The notes: a model not told the origin generated them from the letters alone. A stretch of DNA of 20,408 nt from a virus (IMGVR_UViG_3300029181_000143), one strand, 5' to 3'. Counted from the stretch's first letter, positions 4,406 through 19,030 are shown. A program made the numbers and translations.

Positions 4406-4581
4406 CCTTTTGGCATCAGACGTAAACGAGCCAGCATTGAAACAATGCATATTTTATTTAATAGCTCCCGTTCTTGTTTTCTCTTGTTAATGGCATCTTC
4501 AGTAAATACAGGGTTACTGATAGTGACACCAATTTCAAAACAACCTTCAGACGTATTAACGTTTGGTAATAACGTTTTCAT
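4393..4581 (-). CDS. dicB: Cell division inhibitor DicB (62 aa)
   Basis: Translation MKTLLPNVNTSEGCFEIGVTISNPVFTEDAINKRKQERELLNKICIVSMLARLRLMPKGCAQ matches recalled DicB. It lies downstream of dicF. Confidence 0.85.
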   Translation of the reverse strand: MKTLLPNVNTSEGCFEIGVTISNPVFTEDAINKRKQERELLNKICIVSMLARLRLMPKGCAQ

Positions 4582-4750
4582 TATCGCGCCCTCAACAATG
4601 AGTTTTGTGATGCGGTGCCTGGTGCCTCCAGGTGACGTTAACCAGTTAACAATTAACGCCGGATACAGAGAATCCACCCATAACACTGTTTTTGGTTTTA
4701 ACTGTTCCGCGTGCGCTCAGCCGCATTCACCACATCACAAAATTCACTTT

Positions 4751-4808
4751 AAAAAGGGCGGCAGAGCAGTCACGGAGTAAAACTGATACCGCCAAACGTC
4801 ACCAGAAA
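4751..4808 (-). ncRNA. dicF: DicF small regulatory RNA (53-nt processed form plus U-tail)
   Basis: The reverse complement reads TTTCTGGTGACGTTTGGCGGTATCAGTTTTACTCCGTGACTGCTCTGCCGCCCTTTTT, which is the recalled DicF sequence. It ends in a GC-rich hairpin (GGCGG...CCGCC) followed by a U-run. Confidence 0.85.
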
Positions 4809-8604: not shown

Positions 8605-8752
8605 ATACAGCGAACTCCATTGGTTTAGTTGGATATTTACTGTGCTGGACAAAAACGGTTTGCGGGGAAATCTTAGTTAAGTAGAATGACTGCGGGTGCT
8701 TGAGGCTATCTGCCTCGGGCACGAACACCAACGGCAGGTAGAGAAAAGCCCC

Positions 8753-10628
8753 AGTTAACATTACGCGTCCTGCAAGACGCTTAACATTAATCTGAGGCCG
8801 ATTTCATGCCAGACACATGTAGGTTAGCCTCTTACGTGCCGAAAGGCAAGGAGAAGCAGGCTATTGTTAACACCAAGCTGTAATGTCCCCTTTGAACCAT
8901 TCTAAAATGTCCCCAGACAATTCTCTGGGGGATTTTTCATGACCAAAGAAACTGTTACGATGAGTCATAAGGAACTCCACCGACTTCAGATTATTCAGGA
9001 GTCAATTAATCGACATATTACTCAGGAACAAGCTGCGGCACGCATTGGCATTTCTATTCGGCAGGTTAAACGTCTGGTGCAACGGTATAGAAATGAAGGG
9101 CCTTCTGGTCTGGTTTCCCACCGACGTGGAAAGCGTCCTAATAATTCCTTTTCTACTGAATTCAGAGCAACAGTAATTTCACTCCTCAAAGGCCGTTACG
9201 CTGATTTTGGACCTACGTTTGCGTGCGAAAAATTGCGCGAGATACACGGTTTATCTTTATCCGTTGAAACTCTCAGAAAGTGGATGATAGAAGAGGGGGG
9301 TATGGCGTGAACGCCGTCGTAAAATTGCCCGTATATATCAACGCCGCATGCGACGACCATCTTACGGTGAACTGATCCAGATTGATGGCTCACCTCATGA
9401 CTGGTTTGAAAATCGAGGCCCAGATGTACACTGATCGTTTTCATTGATGATGCCACCAGTGCGTTGATGGCGTTGCGTTTTGTGCCTGCTGAAACAACCC
9501 GGGCTTACATGGAAACCCTCCGGGGTTACCTTAATGATCATGGCGTACCGCTCGCTCTCTACTCTGATAGACACAGTATATTCAGGGTAAATAACCCAGA
9601 GCGGGAAGGTGAGCTGACCCAGTTCACTCGTGCGATAAAGACACTGGGCATCGAGCCAATCCATGCCAACAGCCCGCAGGCAAAAGGGCGGGTAGAGCGC
9701 GCCAATCAGACACTACAGGACAGGCTGGTCAAAGAAATGCGGCTTCAGAATATCAGTGATATTGAAACAGCAAATGCATGGTTGCCGACCTTTATTGAAG
9801 CCTATAACAACCGGTTCGCTACGTCGCCTCGTACTACTGATAATGCTCATCTTGATGTGCACCATTCTGAAGAGGAACTGGGTTATATCTTCAGCCTACA
9901 GGCGAAGCGCGTTCTGTCTAAAAATCTCACTTTCCAGTACAAAAGCAGTGCGTTTCAGGTACGCAGTGAGGGCCGGGGATATCGACTTAGGCATTCGGTT
10001 GTTACTGTATGCGAGAACTTTGACGGTGAAATTAACGTTCTGTATGACGGGAAAGCGCTGGGCTGGGAAAAGTATGTTGATGGCCCGGAGCCTATACCAC
10101 TGGATGATGAAAAGAGTGTCCATGAACGAGTGGATAATGCCCGTATTGATTTACGCTCAAAATACTATGTTAAACCTAAAGCTGACCATCCCTGGCTTAC
10201 GCGCCGAACGCAAAGTCATCAGCAAGTTAAGCCCCCGAAGTTACCTAAAAAGAAGCCTGATCCCGATAAAAAAGATTGAAACCAAGATCGATTCGGTTGA
10301 GTGCATATCCATTCATAGGGTAGATTCTTAAGTCGCGTTTCTGGTGTTCATTTTCGGGTGGTTTGTTACTTGTTTTACCGGGGATATGCCAGAAACGCGC
10401 TGAGTCAGTCTGGGCGGTGCGCGTAATGAGGCGTTATGGTAAATAGCCTATGCTAATGTCCGCTAAGAGCAAGAAGCGGAAGTTGGCAGTTTTGTGGACT
10501 GTCCCCACAAAAGTGACTACAGAAATAGTTGCAATTCATAATTGATCATGGGTTGTCAGTTAAACTCGTGGCGATTTAAATAGACTAATTGGGAGTGCGT
10601 CCATTACTTATATCTTGTAATGTTAACT
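8753..10628 (+). mobile_element. Insertion sequence carrying a DDE (rve-type) transposase; the ends are tentative
   Basis: The transposase gene occupies 8939..10279. The ends are placed at a 12-bp inverted match (agttaacattac at 8753..8764 and gtaatgttaact at 10617..10628). No target-site duplication was recognised. Confidence 0.45.
8939..10279 (+). pseudogene. IS transposase (N-terminal HTH plus DDE integrase core; ISNCY/IS481-like by eye) broken into three segments by two frameshifts
   Basis: N-terminal ORF 8939..9310 and C-terminal ORF 9464..10279 are in the same frame. The intervening 9300..9425 encodes conserved-looking sequence (SYGELIQIDGSPHDWFENRGP) in another frame. The shifts sit at a G6 run (9293..9300) and at GGCCCA (about 9417). 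DDE residues occur in QIDGS, FIDDATS and KGRVERAN. Confidence 0.7.
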
Positions 10629-15385: not shown

Positions 15386-15598
15386 TCATGAAAGGTAAAC
15401 ATTGGCAGCTGAAGGGCCACGCAGACCATTTATCCGGCAAAATTCCACGCGTAATCCGGTGGTAATTTCTTCTGCATCGCGGAGATTGAGCGCTGAGACA
15501 TGAAGCTGGACATCGATACGACCATCGGATGGGGTGATAAGACCCTTGCCGCTTTTGCCGTCAAAGGTTTTGACAATTCCTGTCATTTTACGGGACAA
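15386..15598 (-). CDS. cspF: Cold-shock protein family CspF (70 aa)
   Basis: Translation [38 protein letters not shown]... has the cold-shock-domain fold signature with degenerate RNP motifs, typical of CspF. Confidence 0.85.
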
Positions 15599-15898
15599 AA
15601 AAATTCCTTAATACTGATAACTTGGCGCACTATACACACGTTCCTGAAGAAAGCTATAGTTTTTTGATGGGGTTGAAGATGGCTGGATGTCTAAAATAAA
15701 CATTGCTTCATATGTTCAACTATGCGTTAATGATTGCGTCGGTTTGAAGAACAGACGATATACGAAGTAGTTTACTAAAGCAGTTCTCATTTCAGGTGTT
15801 ATTCACTTATTCCTTCTTTGAGTCTCTCCAATTAAGTACGAAGTCGTTTCTGTTATGCAAACCATTTATGCCGAAAGGCTCAAGTTAAGGAATGTAGA

Positions 15899-16114
15899 AT
15901 GTCAAATAAAATGACTGGTTTAGTAAAATGGTTTAACGCTGATAAAGGTTTCGGCTTTATTTCTCCTGTTGATGGTAGTAAAGATGTGTTTGTGCATTTT
16001 TCTGCGATTCAGAATGATAATTATCGAACCTTATTTGAAGGTCAAAAGGTTACCTTCTCTATAGAGAGTGGTGCTAAAGGTCCTGCAGCAGCAAATGTCA
16101 TCATTACTGATTAA
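15899..16114 (+). CDS. cspB: Cold-shock protein CspB (71 aa)
   Basis: Translation [67 protein letters not shown] with RNP1 (KGFGFI) and RNP2 (VFVHF), preceded by a long AT-rich 5' leader. Confidence 0.9.
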
Positions 16115-16394
16115 AATTCATCGCTCGTCTGTATACGATAACGAAGAAGGCTGATGCCTGAGTAGAGATACGGACAGAGTAGTGAATATTGGATCTCTTT
16201 AATAAAAAGTAAGGAGGTCCAATACATGAAACAATGGCTAGCATATTTAGCAAAATCTTAATCAGGAAAAGTATGCTAACCATTGTGGTGAAGTGCAGGT
16301 TTGCTGCATGAATAGTTTTACAGCAGAAGCTAACTGCTGGCATGGCAAAACAAAGTGCGTAAGTGGATGACTCCCACAAAAAGCACCACAATCT

Positions 16395-16420
16395 CAAACC
16401 CGCTCAGGCGGGTTTTTTAT
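16395..16420 (+). terminator. Rho-independent terminator between convergent cspB and the ydfK-like gene
   Basis: aaACCCGCtcagGCGGGTtttttatt hairpin with a T-run. Confidence 0.6.
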
Positions 16421-16477
16421 TATCTGCTTTAAATATATTATTAAAATATAAAAAATACTTGTTACTAATAAAATCAA

Positions 16478-16648
16478 TCAGGCTACAGCTTTAAGATTTG
16501 TCTGGAATACTTTGTTGCAATGAGGGCAGATCAAAAGGGCACCTTTTTGTACTCTTGAAAAACTGTGTTCTGACTCTTGGGTGCAGTTTGGGCAGGAACA
16601 TTTAACGAGATAATTACGGCGTGATTTTGAGTTTTTACGTTCTGACAT
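16478..16648 (-). CDS. ydfK: YdfK/YnaE-like small zinc-ribbon protein (56 aa)
   Basis: Translation MSERKNSKSRRNYLVKCSCPNCTQESEHSFSRVQKGALLICPHCNKVFQTNLKAVA with two CxxC pairs. The start is taken at the internal Met of the 73-aa ORF. Confidence 0.6.
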   Translation of the reverse strand: MSERKNSKSRRNYLVKCSCPNCTQESEHSFSRVQKGALLICPHCNKVFQTNLKAVA

Positions 16649-16867: not shown

Positions 16868-17083
16868 ATGAAATCAATGGATAAGTTAACAACAGGTGTT
16901 GCCTATGGCACATCGGCGGGTAATGCTGGTTTCTGGGCATTGCAGTTACTCGATAAAGTAACTCCGTCACAGTGGGCTGCAATCGGTGTGCTGGGTAGCC
17001 TGGTTTTTGGCCTGCTGACGTATCTGACAAATCTTTATTTCAAGATTAAAGAAGACAGGCGTAAGGCTGCGAGAGGAGAGTAA
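16868..17083 (+). CDS. essQ: S21-type pinholin (71 aa)
   Basis: Translation [71 protein letters not shown] has two transmembrane segments and a basic C-terminus. GAGG Shine-Dalgarno upstream. It is the first gene of the lysis cassette. Confidence 0.8.
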
Positions 17084-18423: not shown

Positions 18424-18786
18424 GGTAATATTAAATCGGAACATTTACATCGCGGAATGTAAAATTTAAATAAAAAGGACTCTTCCATGAGCCAAAATTC
18501 CTGAAATCTTAAGGGTAAGATAAAAGGTCTTAATCAGAATGACACGTTATTATTAATAAATAAAGCTATTCTTTCATTGCTGTGTTTTTCTTTACAAAAG
18601 TAATCCTTGCTATGGGTGGTTAATCATGCGTTAATGGTGTTCTGGTTTGTTACAAATTTATCTGAAGCAGTCATTGTTATAATTTTATTATTTGTACCTC
18701 TTGAGATTTCCTTGTTGGTTTTTCTCTCTGATATTTTTTTTCGGACCATTCTGCCCAAGGGCTAATTTCTTCAAAAGGTAATAATT

Positions 18787-18999
18787 ATGTCTAACAAAAT
18801 GACTGGTTTAGTGAAATGGTTTAACCCTGAAAAAGGTTTTGGTTTCATCACGCCGAAAGATGGCAGCAAAGATGTGTTTGTCCATTTCTCAGCAATTCAG
18901 AGCAACGATTTCAAAACATTAACTGAGAATCAGGAAGTTGAATTTGGTATTGAGAACGGACCTAAAGGTCCTGCCGCTGTTCATGTAGTGGCGCTTTGA
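18787..18999 (+). CDS. cspI: Cold-shock protein CspI (70 aa)
   Basis: Translation [70 protein letters not shown], preceded by a long AT-rich leader. Confidence 0.9.
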
Positions 19000-19030
19000 G
19001 GTAGACAATATTACAAACCATATTCACTTT

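What the first reader, a model, noticed from the sequence alone, without database searches (positions are those of the whole stretch)
16211..16420. An 11-codon ORF with a perfect Shine-Dalgarno, followed by hairpins and a terminator
TAAGGAGGT sits 8 nt upstream of ATG 16226 and encodes MKQWLAYLAKS. About 40 nt later come stems gtgcag..ctgcat and cagcag..ctgctg, then an intrinsic terminator at 16395..16420. A strong ribosome-binding site for a very short ORF is unlikely to be accidental. It could be a leader peptide or attenuator, a small protein, or a small RNA.
Basis: seen in the sequence. Interest (0 to 1): 0.45.

Follow-up and report, generated by a model that had tools for sequence, protein, structure and literature searches.

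The report
Structured 3' UTR RNA of cspB
The tiny ORF with a perfect ribosome-binding site is real in the sequence, but it sits inside the folded tail of the cold-shock gene cspB's messenger RNA, where its ribosome-binding site is base-paired shut; the conserved feature is an undescribed RNA structure, not the peptide.

Summary
The window is the E. coli K-12 cryptic prophage Qin, reverse-complemented. The finding lies in the roughly 300-nt 3' UTR of cspB, between cspB and the convergent ynfU. The SD is at 16210-16218, the ATG at 16226, the stop at 16259-16261, the stems at 16293-16309 and 16322-16338, and the terminator at 16396-16418.

The SD is the 3' arm of a 15-bp hairpin (-18.3 kcal/mol, SD unpaired probability below 1%). 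Its 5' arm resembles the 16S anti-SD.

The SD, ATG and ORF occur only in the Escherichia (Qin-type) lineage. There the ORF varies mostly non-synonymously (5 non-synonymous or nonsense sites against 1 synonymous).

The two "stems" are helices P2 and P3 of a 166-nt multi-helix RNA domain (16230-16395). This domain follows cspB-like genes in prophages, phage-plasmids and islands of at least 10 enterobacterial genera. About 97% of its base pairs are kept, and 10 pairs show compensatory changes. No reading frame is conserved through it, and it matches no Rfam family.

Best reading: a conserved structured 3' UTR of the csp mRNA, most likely acting in cis on mRNA fate. The ORF is a lineage-specific, probably silent by-product. 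A leader-peptide attenuator is not supported. Function is inferred, not shown.

The parts
15899..16114 (+). cspB coding sequence, the gene whose mRNA carries the finding in its 3' UTR
   Evidence: Annotated cspB in MG1655. The Rfam cspA thermoregulator match covers 15738-16130.
16116..16187 (+). H1: long imperfect hairpin at the start of the 3' UTR, with the conserved apical motif ..AACGAAGA..GG....CC UGAGUAGA..
   Evidence: MFE fold. RNAalifold on 13 homologues gives 17 pairs, 11 with changes on both sides.
16187..16224 (+). H2: 15-bp hairpin. The 5' arm UAUUGGAUCUCUUUA is anti-SD-like, the loop is AUAAAAAG, and the 3' arm UAAGGAGGUCCAAUA contains the SD. Found in the Escherichia lineage only.
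   Evidence: -18.3 kcal/mol, z = -7.2. The opposite strand folds at only -11.2 kcal/mol because two G.U pairs become mismatches. SD unpaired probability is below 1% at 15, 37 and 42 C. Within-lineage changes in the arms mostly keep pairing.
16210..16218 (+). Shine-Dalgarno-like 9-mer TAAGGAGGT
   Evidence: Perfect in 153 of 162 Qin-type copies; GGAGA in 7 and GGCGG in 2.
16226..16261 (+). 11-codon ORF MKQWLAYLAKS. Codons 2-7 form the 5' arm of helix P0.
   Evidence: Variants are MKQWPAYLAKS, MKQWPAYLAIT, MKQWPAYLVIT and MKQ*. Absent outside the Escherichia-type UTR.
16230..16395 (+). Conserved multi-helix RNA domain. P0 is 16231-16245/16272-16286. P1 is 16287-16290/16384-16387. P2 is 16293-16298/16304-16309. 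P3 is 16322-16326/16334-16338, with loop AAGCUAA. P4 is 16363-16366/16374-16377.
   Evidence: Covariance model R1 hit of 161 bits, the only copy in the window. On 27 sequences, 97.8% of cells are paired, 10 pairs changed on both sides, and 0 of 500 shuffles reached that; slid controls gave 17-52%. On 52 distinct sequences, 96.6% of cells are paired.
16396..16418 (+). Intrinsic terminator of the cspB transcript: AAACCCGC-UCAG-GCGGGUUU followed by a U-run
   Evidence: Terminator scan, MFE fold, and the sequence.
16478..16648 (-). ynfU (context): a convergent zinc-ribbon small-protein gene, so no co-oriented gene follows the terminator until essQ at 16868
   Evidence: Annotation. Pfam YnfU match at 3.5e-31.

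Best explanation
The region is the roughly 300-nt 3' untranslated region of the cold-shock gene cspB in prophage Qin. It is transcribed from the cspB promoter and ends at the intrinsic terminator at 16396-16418. It is a chain of RNA structures: hairpin H1, hairpin H2, a 166-nt junction domain (P0-P4), and the terminator. H1 and the P0-P4 domain are conserved, with compensatory base changes, downstream of cspB-like genes carried by lambdoid prophages, phage-plasmids and genomic islands across Enterobacteriaceae. This is shown. The 'perfect' Shine-Dalgarno is the 3' arm of H2 and is base-paired to an anti-SD-like 5' arm. The 11-codon ORF overlaps the 5' arm of P0. Both are peculiar to the Escherichia lineage and show no constraint at the peptide level. 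The ORF is therefore most likely untranslated, or only weakly translated, and a by-product of RNA-level sequence. This is inferred from thermodynamics and comparative data. The most likely function, also inferred and not shown, is a cis-acting 3' end domain. It would set the fate of the csp mRNA by shielding it from 3'-5' exonucleases and RNase E entry, and by forming or reinforcing the transcript end. In clades that lack a separate terminator, the closing helix P1 is directly followed by a U-run. The conserved single-stranded junctions probably serve as a recognition surface for a protein.
For: Location: between cspB and the convergent ynfU, with nothing annotated there in NC_000913.3 or by PGAP. 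Structure: the 3' UTR has MFE -104.2 kcal/mol with z = -6.7. H2 folds at -18.3 kcal/mol with z = -7.2. SD unpaired probability is below 1% at 15, 37 and 42 C, and opening the ribosome docking site costs about 23 kcal/mol against 15 for cspB's own start. Conservation: the core pattern was found in at least 120 viral contigs, 26 GTDB species genomes in about 10 genera, and 53 metagenome contigs. Every copy with enough upstream DNA follows a cspB-like gene, except the IS-disrupted ones. It is present in 1716 of 5426 complete E. coli genomes. Covariation: 97.8% of cells paired, 10 pairs with two-sided changes, 0 of 500 shuffles as high, and slid controls of 17-52% with at most 2 such pairs. The result repeats on 52 distinct sequences. 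H1 has 11 of 17 pairs with two-sided changes. Strand: about 40 G.U cells against about 4 A.C cells, so the csp sense strand is the functional one. Not coding: 1-nt indels in the P2-P3 linker break every frame in 4 clades, and there is no conserved start. ORF: restricted to the Escherichia-type UTR. Among 38 Qin-type haplotypes there are 5 non-synonymous or nonsense sites against 1 synonymous, and site density is 0.167 against 0.056 in cspB. No promoter-like site lies on the + strand between cspB and the terminator. In PHB10-type copies no canonical terminator follows; P1 is followed by UUCUUAUUUUUU.
Against: No expression, processing, ribosome-occupancy or half-life data for this region could be retrieved, so function is inferred only. 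The SD is a perfect 9-mer and the ATG is invariant in all 162 Qin-type copies, and the ATG itself sits in a short unpaired linker. Translation after hairpin melting, for example by Csp RNA chaperones in the cold, therefore cannot be excluded. Covariation rests on about 6 clades, so independent events are few. A naive all-against-all scan yields many spurious covarying columns from a single clade split. The homologue set was collected with sequence anchors in P3 and the P3-P4 linker, so the invariance of those segments is partly by construction. A generic stability role does not explain why the junction sequences are so strongly conserved.
Confidence: 0.6

Rival explanations
1. The conserved domain is released from, or accumulates as, a stable 3'-UTR-derived RNA. 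This RNA would act in trans, as a base-pairing sRNA or as a sponge or decoy for an RNA-binding protein such as Hfq, ProQ, Csp proteins or the co-travelling YnfU zinc-ribbon protein.
For: It shares the mRNA terminator, which has a 6-U tail. It is more conserved than flanking non-coding DNA: site density is 0.067 in the core and 0 in the P0 3' half, against 0.375 in the downstream spacer. It has invariant single-stranded segments, the loop AAGCUAA and the linker AAAGUGCGUAAG. YnfU-like and CspF-like genes co-occur within 3 kb in 3 of 4 clades.
Against: No internal promoter is predicted. A RIL-seq-derived table lists cspF.cspB.IGR and the cspB CDS but no cspB 3' UTR node. That test is weak, because cspB is poorly expressed at 37 C. 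Invariance of the putative seeds is partly imposed by the search pattern. Cyrano-type phage-plasmids keep the domain without YnfU or CspF. There is no excess 5'UTR-3'UTR complementarity.
Confidence: 0.2
2. The 11-codon ORF is translated and matters. It would act either as a small protein or as a cis-acting translated leader: ribosome passage would unfold P0 and change the fate of the transcript, gated by opening of the SD hairpin (for example by Csp chaperones in the cold).
For: The SD is a perfect 9-mer with ideal spacing. The ATG and TAA are invariant and the SD is perfect in 153 of 162 Escherichia copies. The ATG lies in an unpaired linker. The ORF overlaps the 5' arm of P0, so translation would necessarily remodel the domain.
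Against: The SD is more than 99% paired at 15-42 C, in a -18.3 kcal/mol stem. SD-weakening alleles (GGAGA, which also strengthens the stem, and GGCGG) and a W4stop allele exist. There are 5 non-synonymous sites against 1 synonymous. The SD, ATG and ORF are absent in all other clades that keep the domain. The ORF is not annotated in K-12, although the neighbouring ynfU was discovered by initiation profiling.
Confidence: 0.12
3. Classical leader-peptide transcription attenuator: translation of the short ORF decides whether the terminator at 16396-16418 forms, controlling read-through into downstream genes (essQ and the lysis cassette).
For: Superficial anatomy: a short ORF, then hairpins, then an intrinsic terminator. 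There is a weak sub-threshold Rfam resemblance to Trp_leader (21.7 bits against the gathering score of 41).
Against: The element is downstream of its gene. The next gene is the convergent ynfU, and essQ starts 450 nt after the terminator. The stop codon lies 135 nt before the terminator. No upstream segment shows conserved complementarity to a terminator arm (inspection). There are no runs of regulatory codons. The terminator hairpin is absent in clades that keep the other hairpins. Read-through in these phages is already provided by the Q antiterminator gene upstream.
Confidence: 0.03
4. Relic or chance: the SD plus ATG is a remnant of a lost phage gene start or a fortuitous purine-rich hairpin arm, and the whole UTR has no function beyond termination.
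For: The SD plus ATG is only mildly improbable. The H2 position holds unrelated hairpins in other clades. Prophage Qin is cryptic and mosaic.
Against: BLAST of 16182-16262 finds no related gene start elsewhere. H1 and P0-P4 keep pairing through compensatory changes across genera and replicon types. That is not expected for functionless DNA.
Confidence: 0.05

Closest known systems
3'-UTR-embedded regulatory RNAs and 3'-UTR-derived sRNAs of enterobacteria (e.g. CpxQ, SdhX, MicL, DapZ; from general knowledge)
   Same: Lies between a stop codon and the mRNA's own intrinsic terminator. More conserved than neutral spacer. No promoter of its own is predicted.
   Different: Those are typically 50-100 nt, with a single-stranded seed and Hfq dependence. 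Here there is a 166-nt multi-helix junction plus a second conserved hairpin. No Hfq or ProQ evidence, processing site or target is known.
Leader-peptide transcription attenuators (trpL, thrL, hisL, pheL, pyrL)
   Same: A short ORF with an SD, followed by hairpins and a rho-independent terminator.
   Different: Those sit 5' of the regulated operon, have regulatory codons, and have mutually exclusive terminator and antiterminator pairings. None of these features is present. Here the SD is sequestered and the ORF is not conserved.
cspA-family 5' UTR thermoregulator (Rfam RF01766)
   Same: Same gene family and same transcript. It is a large structured UTR controlling a cold-shock mRNA, and it is present upstream of every cspB-like gene that carries the domain.
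   Different: That element is the 5' UTR plus coding region. The present element is the 3' UTR and matches no Rfam model.
icaR 3' UTR anti-SD element of Staphylococcus aureus, and SD-sequestering hairpins in general
   Same: A 3' UTR contains an anti-SD-like pyrimidine stretch (GGAUCUCUUUA, compared with the 16S 3' end GGAUCACCUCCUUA) that pairs with an SD sequence.
   Different: In icaR the 3' UTR motif pairs with the SD of the gene's own 5' UTR. Here it pairs locally with an SD-like sequence 8 nt away, and no 5'-3' UTR complementarity above shuffles was found.
Dual-function RNAs with very small ORFs (Spot 42/SpfP 15 aa, SgrS/SgrT)
   Same: A tiny ORF embedded in a structured, conserved RNA.
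   Different: In those cases the ORF is conserved and its translation is demonstrated. Here the ORF is lineage-specific and evolves neutrally.

Membership tests
Leader-peptide transcription attenuator | Short ORF lies in the 5' leader of co-oriented regulated genes | tested here: not met
   The ORF is 111 nt downstream of the cspB stop. The next gene, ynfU, is convergent. essQ starts at 16868, 450 nt past the terminator.
Leader-peptide transcription attenuator | Mutually exclusive antiterminator and terminator pairing coupled to ribosome position | tested here: not met
   The terminator is an isolated hairpin in the MFE and centroid folds. No conserved upstream complement to its arms was found. 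The terminator is absent in clades that keep P0-P4.
Leader-peptide transcription attenuator | Regulatory codon runs, and conservation of the leader ORF in homologous loci | tested here: not met
   MKQWLAYLAKS has no repeated regulatory codons. The ORF is absent outside the Escherichia-type UTR.
Small protein gene | ORF and start codon conserved across homologous loci, with purifying selection | tested here: not met
   Restricted to one lineage. Five non-synonymous or nonsense sites against one synonymous, including a W4stop allele. Site density is three times that of cspB.
Small protein gene | Accessible ribosome-binding site | tested here: not met
   SD unpaired probability is below 1% at 15, 37 and 42 C. 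The opening cost is about 23 kcal/mol.
Small protein gene | Ribosome occupancy or detectable product | not testable with these tools
   The supplements of the relevant initiation-profiling papers are not held, or are truncated before this coordinate.
Conserved structured RNA motif (Rfam-type family) | Base pairs maintained through compensatory substitutions in diverged homologues, on one strand | tested here: met
   97.8% and 96.6% of cells paired. Ten pairs with two-sided changes. 0 of 500 shuffles as high, and slid controls far lower. H1 has 11 of 17 pairs with two-sided changes. The G.U against A.C asymmetry favours the + strand.
Any existing Rfam 15 family | Match at or above the gathering score | tested here: not met
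   No hit over 16131-16480 at gathering score. The best sub-threshold hits are terminator-driven: Trp_leader at 21.7 against 41, and isrK at 18.3 against 50. Five diverged homologous loci also gave no hit over the domain.
3'-UTR-derived Hfq/ProQ-dependent sRNA | Shares the parental mRNA's terminator and has no promoter of its own, or only an internal one | tested here: met
   The domain ends 1 nt before the cspB terminator. There is no + strand promoter-like site in 16115-16400.
3'-UTR-derived Hfq/ProQ-dependent sRNA | Stable processed species, chaperone binding and trans targets | not testable with these tools
   The only indirect evidence is that a RIL-seq-derived table has no cspB 3' UTR node. 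Those conditions do not induce cspB.
tRNA-like / tmRNA-like element | Cloverleaf recognised by ARAGORN | tested here: not met
   ARAGORN called 0 genes in the window.

The most novel reading that the evidence does not exclude
The H1 and P0-P4 RNA is a previously undescribed, specifically recognised riboregulatory domain, binding a protein or other ligand, that mobile elements carry together with a cold-shock chaperone gene. In Escherichia the SD hairpin and mini-ORF would form an added switch. Melting of H2 (for example by accumulated Csp chaperones in the cold) would let a ribosome load and unzip P0, changing the stability or termination of the csp transcript. This would be an autoregulatory 3'-UTR translation switch.
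Probability: 0.15. Interest if true: 0.7.

Novelty: new member of a known kind. Interest (0 to 1): 0.45.

Why it matters
E. coli K-12 is the most intensively annotated bacterium, yet this 166-nt covarying RNA domain next to cspB is unannotated. It is absent from Rfam and from the searchable literature. It travels with cold-shock chaperone genes on prophages, phage-plasmids and islands in many enterobacteria, which suggests a dedicated post-transcriptional control layer for mobile csp genes. If it controls mRNA half-life or termination, it would add a 3'-UTR component to the cold-shock paradigm, which so far centres on the 5' UTR thermosensor. The case also carries a caution for small-ORF hunting: a textbook SD plus ATG can be the arm of an RNA hairpin.

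Tried and rejected
1. Rfam at gathering score and at E<=10, on the window and on five diverged loci: no family covers the element.
2. A coding reading of the conserved core. A Cys-rich frame (..ADRCDEVQVCCMNSLKAEANCL) is open in several clades, but 1-nt indels break it in four clades and it has no conserved start. The 97-aa antisense ORF, annotated as a hypothetical protein in phage PhiR42_1, and the 41-aa sense ORF of PHB10 have no Pfam match.
3. 5'UTR-3'UTR pairing in the manner of icaR: duplex energies are no better than shuffles, with z between -1.1 and +1.5.
4. tRNA-like fold: ARAGORN found nothing.
5. A paralogous copy after cspI or elsewhere in the window: none. The second-best covariance-model hit is the antisense of P0 at 22.8 bits.
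6. Origin of the SD/ATG segment from another gene start: BLAST finds only Qin-type phages.
7. An alternative switch between the P0 extension and an extended P1: the extension of P1 has no two-sided changes and is broken in 8 of 27 sequences, so a switch is not supported.
8. A scan for tertiary or pseudoknot covariation was swamped by clade-level correlations.
9. Literature. There is no paper containing the peptide or an E. coli cspB 3' UTR. Ribosome-profiling supplements are not held or are truncated. The term-seq supplement files that are held list no 3' end at 164103x-164105x, which is inconclusive.
10. Relaxed pattern scans meant to find diverged P3 variants found none.
11. A protein-based locus search returned only identical Qin-type copies. 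These were useful only for the polymorphism survey.

Full report
WHERE THIS IS

The window is the cryptic lambdoid prophage Qin of E. coli K-12, reverse-complemented (NC_000913.3 1632277-1652745; window position x corresponds to about 1657453 - x). On the + strand the local gene order is:
- ydfU
- ydfT (Q antiterminator)
- ynfS(-) and cspF(-)
- cspB (15899-16114, +)
- the finding
- ynfU (16478-16648, -)
- essQ (16868-, +) and the lysis genes

Neither the curated K-12 record nor PGAP annotates anything between cspB and ynfU. The finding is therefore the 3' untranslated region of cspB.

- TAAGGAGGT is at 16210-16218.
- ATG is at 16226, and the ORF ends with TAA at 16259-16261 (MKQWLAYLAKS).
- The two stems are at 16293-16309 and 16321-16339.
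- The terminator is AAACCCGC-UCAG-GCGGGUUU plus a U-run at 16396-16418.

The 9-mer SD is expected 0.10 times in a window of this composition. AGGAGG-N4-9-ATG occurs twice against 0.89 expected. The SD plus ATG alone is therefore suggestive, not compelling.

THE SD IS LOCKED AWAY

The whole 310-nt UTR folds far better than shuffles, at -104.2 kcal/mol with z = -6.7. In that fold the SD is the 3' arm of a 15-bp hairpin, H2 (16187-16224). Its 5' arm, UAUUGGAUCUCUUUA, resembles the 16S rRNA 3' tail.

H2 alone folds at -18.3 kcal/mol with z = -7.2. The opposite strand folds at only -11.2 kcal/mol, because two G.U pairs become mismatches there, so the hairpin is an RNA-level feature of the + strand.

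The probability that any SD base is unpaired is below 1% at 15, 37 and 42 C. Freeing the ribosome docking site costs about 23 kcal/mol, against about 15 for cspB's own start, which is itself structured. The ATG sits in a 6-nt linker between H2 and the next helix.

WHAT IS CONSERVED IS RNA STRUCTURE, NOT THE ORF

A BLAST search showed that 16280-16422 recurs at 82% identity in the phage-plasmid Cyrano and at 75% in phage PHB10. In both it lies downstream of a cspB-like gene, and in Cyrano that gene is unannotated.

A pattern built from two conserved segments retrieved:
- at least 120 viral contigs;
- 26 species-representative genomes, from Escherichia, Shigella, Enterobacter, Kluyvera, Kosakonia, Phytobacter, Raoultella, Superficieibacter and Pseudescherichia;
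- 53 metagenome contigs.

Every copy with enough upstream sequence follows a cspB-like gene. The exceptions are two copies disrupted by IS elements. In complete E. coli genomes the region is present in 1716 of 5426.

An alignment of 27 distinct sequences supports a five-helix domain (window 16230-16395):
- P0 is a long hairpin, 16231-16245/16272-16286.
- P1 is a closing stem, GGUG/CACC.
- P4 is GUGG/CCAC.

In this alignment 97.8% of sequence-pair cells form standard pairs. Ten pairs show changes on both sides, and 0 of 500 shuffles reach this. Shifting partners by 1-3 columns gives 17-52% pairing and at most 2 such pairs.

A covariance model built from the alignment finds exactly one copy in the window, at 161 bits. 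The statistics hold on 52 distinct sequences. G.U pairs outnumber A.C about ten to one, so the csp sense strand is the functional strand.

The first hairpin of the UTR, H1 (16116-16187), also covaries, with 11 of 17 pairs changed on both sides.

One caveat applies. The sequences fall into about six clades, so independent compensatory events are few. A naive all-against-all scan yields many spurious correlations from a single clade split. In addition, P3 and the P3-P4 linker were used as search anchors, so their invariance is partly by construction.

THE ELEMENT IS NOT PROTEIN-CODING

One frame through P2-P3 is open in several clades (..CDEVQVCCMNSLKAEANCL). It lacks a conserved start, and 1-nt indels in the P2-P3 linker shift it in four clades. 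Compensatory stem changes are non-conservative in that frame. The antisense 97-aa ORF and the 41-aa ORF annotated in phage records have no family match.

THE 11-CODON ORF ITSELF

The SD, ATG and ORF occur only in the Escherichia (Qin-type) form of the UTR. All other clades carry unrelated sequence at the H2 position, in Cyrano-type copies a different hairpin, and they have no ATG.

Among 162 Qin-type copies (38 haplotypes), the ORF has 6 segregating sites in 36 nt. Five are non-synonymous or nonsense (W4stop, L5P, A9V, K10I, S11T) and one is synonymous. In cspB there are 12 segregating sites in 216 nt, carrying 13 variant alleles (6 synonymous, 7 non-synonymous). The 3' half of P0 has no variable site at all.

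SD variants exist. GGAGA occurs in 7 copies and turns a U.G pair into U-A, strengthening the stem. GGCGG occurs in 2 copies. Arm changes in H2 are mostly pair-preserving, and half of its loop positions vary.

The pattern fits selection on RNA pairing and none on the peptide. On the other side, the ATG and TAA are invariant and the SD is perfect in 153 of 162 copies. Overall divergence in this lineage is low, so that conservation carries little weight.

THE ATTENUATOR READING FAILS

- The element follows its gene rather than preceding one.
- The next gene is convergent, and the next co-oriented gene starts 450 nt after the terminator.
- The stop codon is 135 nt before the terminator.
- Nothing conserved competes with the terminator arms.
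- There are no regulatory codons.
- The GC-rich terminator is missing in clades that retain P0-P4. There the closing helix P1 is followed directly by a U-run and no other terminator-like site is found.
- Read-through of terminators in these phages is already provided by Q.

WHAT IT MOST LIKELY DOES

Shown: this is a conserved, strand-specific, multi-helix RNA at the 3' end of mobile cspB-like mRNAs. It has no promoter of its own and ends at, or itself forms, the transcript terminus.

Inferred: it acts in cis on the csp transcript. csp mRNAs are regulated chiefly through stability and are cleared by 3' exonucleases and RNase E (general knowledge of the cold-shock response). A folded 3' domain with conserved single-stranded junctions is well placed to block or recruit such factors.

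I put about 0.6 on the statement that this is a structured 3' UTR in which the ORF is incidental and silent. Within that, the specific cis-stability role is the most likely function but is unproven.

The rivals are:
- a 3'-derived trans-acting or protein-sponging RNA (0.2). YnfU-like and CspF-like genes co-travel in three of four clades, but not in Cyrano-type phage-plasmids, and a RIL-seq-derived table has no node for this UTR (a weak test);
- a translated cis-acting mini-ORF gated by H2 melting (0.12);
- a relic with no function (0.05);
- a classical attenuator (0.03).

COMPARISON WITH WHAT IS KNOWN

No Rfam 15 family matches, at the gathering score or convincingly at E<=10, in the window or in five diverged homologues. 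Only the cspA 5' UTR thermoregulator upstream is found. Full-text searches found no paper mentioning the peptide or an E. coli cspB 3' UTR element.

The neighbouring ynfU was discovered by initiation-site ribosome profiling. The tables that would show whether this ORF was also seen are not available here.

In kind, the element resembles 3'-UTR-embedded regulatory RNAs. It is not a member of any described family, so I classify it as a new member of a known kind.

VERDICT

The mini-ORF by itself is of low interest. The conserved, undescribed 3' UTR domain it sits in gives the locus moderate interest.

Noticed in passing
L004 1952-2370 (phage Cyrano OV696614): An unannotated cspB-like gene with a cspA-type 5' UTR (RF01766, 187 bits) lies in a 850-bp 'empty' gap between hicB and dnaE of this phage-plasmid. 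The same 3' UTR domain follows it at L004 2466-2616.
   Followed up: partly
L138 about 4424-4627 (Raoultella lignicola): The P2-P3 linker of the domain carries a 7-fold tandem expansion of CCTGAAAG. The copy still scores 110 bits with the covariance model.
   Followed up: no
L023, L080; E. coli hits H2-H7: IS elements have repeatedly landed in this cassette. IS1 sits in cspB (L023). An IS3-family element cuts the domain inside P0 (L080). IS1 or IS200C lies within the cspB-ynfU stretch in several complete genomes.
   Followed up: partly
L131 2941-3070; L005 3288-3489: Rfam STnc100 sRNA hits (68 and 53 bits) lie 0.5-1.2 kb downstream of the csp 3' domain in two other cassettes. There is no such hit in the Qin window.
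   Followed up: no
window 16104-16379 (-) and L005 1950-2075 (+): Phage GenBank records annotate 'hypothetical proteins' directly over the RNA domain: XSB42601.1 (antisense) in PhiR42_1 and QBJ00788.1 (41 aa, sense) in PHB10. Neither frame is conserved and neither has a Pfam match, so they are probably mis-annotations.
   Followed up: yes
window 16233-16310 (+): A second small ORF lies in the +1 frame (MASIFSKILIRKSMLTIVVKCRFAA, 25 aa). It starts 15 nt after the SD and runs through P0 and P2. It is not conserved outside the Escherichia lineage.
   Followed up: partly
window 15386-15598 (-), 16478-16648 (-), and homologous loci: A CspF-like gene (divergent from cspB) and a YnfU-like zinc-ribbon gene travel with cspB and the RNA domain in three of four clades. 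YnfU lies either convergent downstream or upstream of cspF. Both are absent in Cyrano-type phage-plasmids.
   Followed up: partly
window 4756-4807 (-), 8694-8865 (+), 18641-19026 (+): Other RNA features of the window were recovered by Rfam: DicF, the sok antitoxin of hokD, and a second cspA-type thermoregulator (cspI). cspI has no copy of the 3' domain.
   Followed up: yes
window 16249: The window differs from K-12 MG1655 by A instead of G at this position (codon 8, TTA against TTG, both Leu). In 37 of 38 Qin-type haplotypes the base is G.
   Followed up: yes
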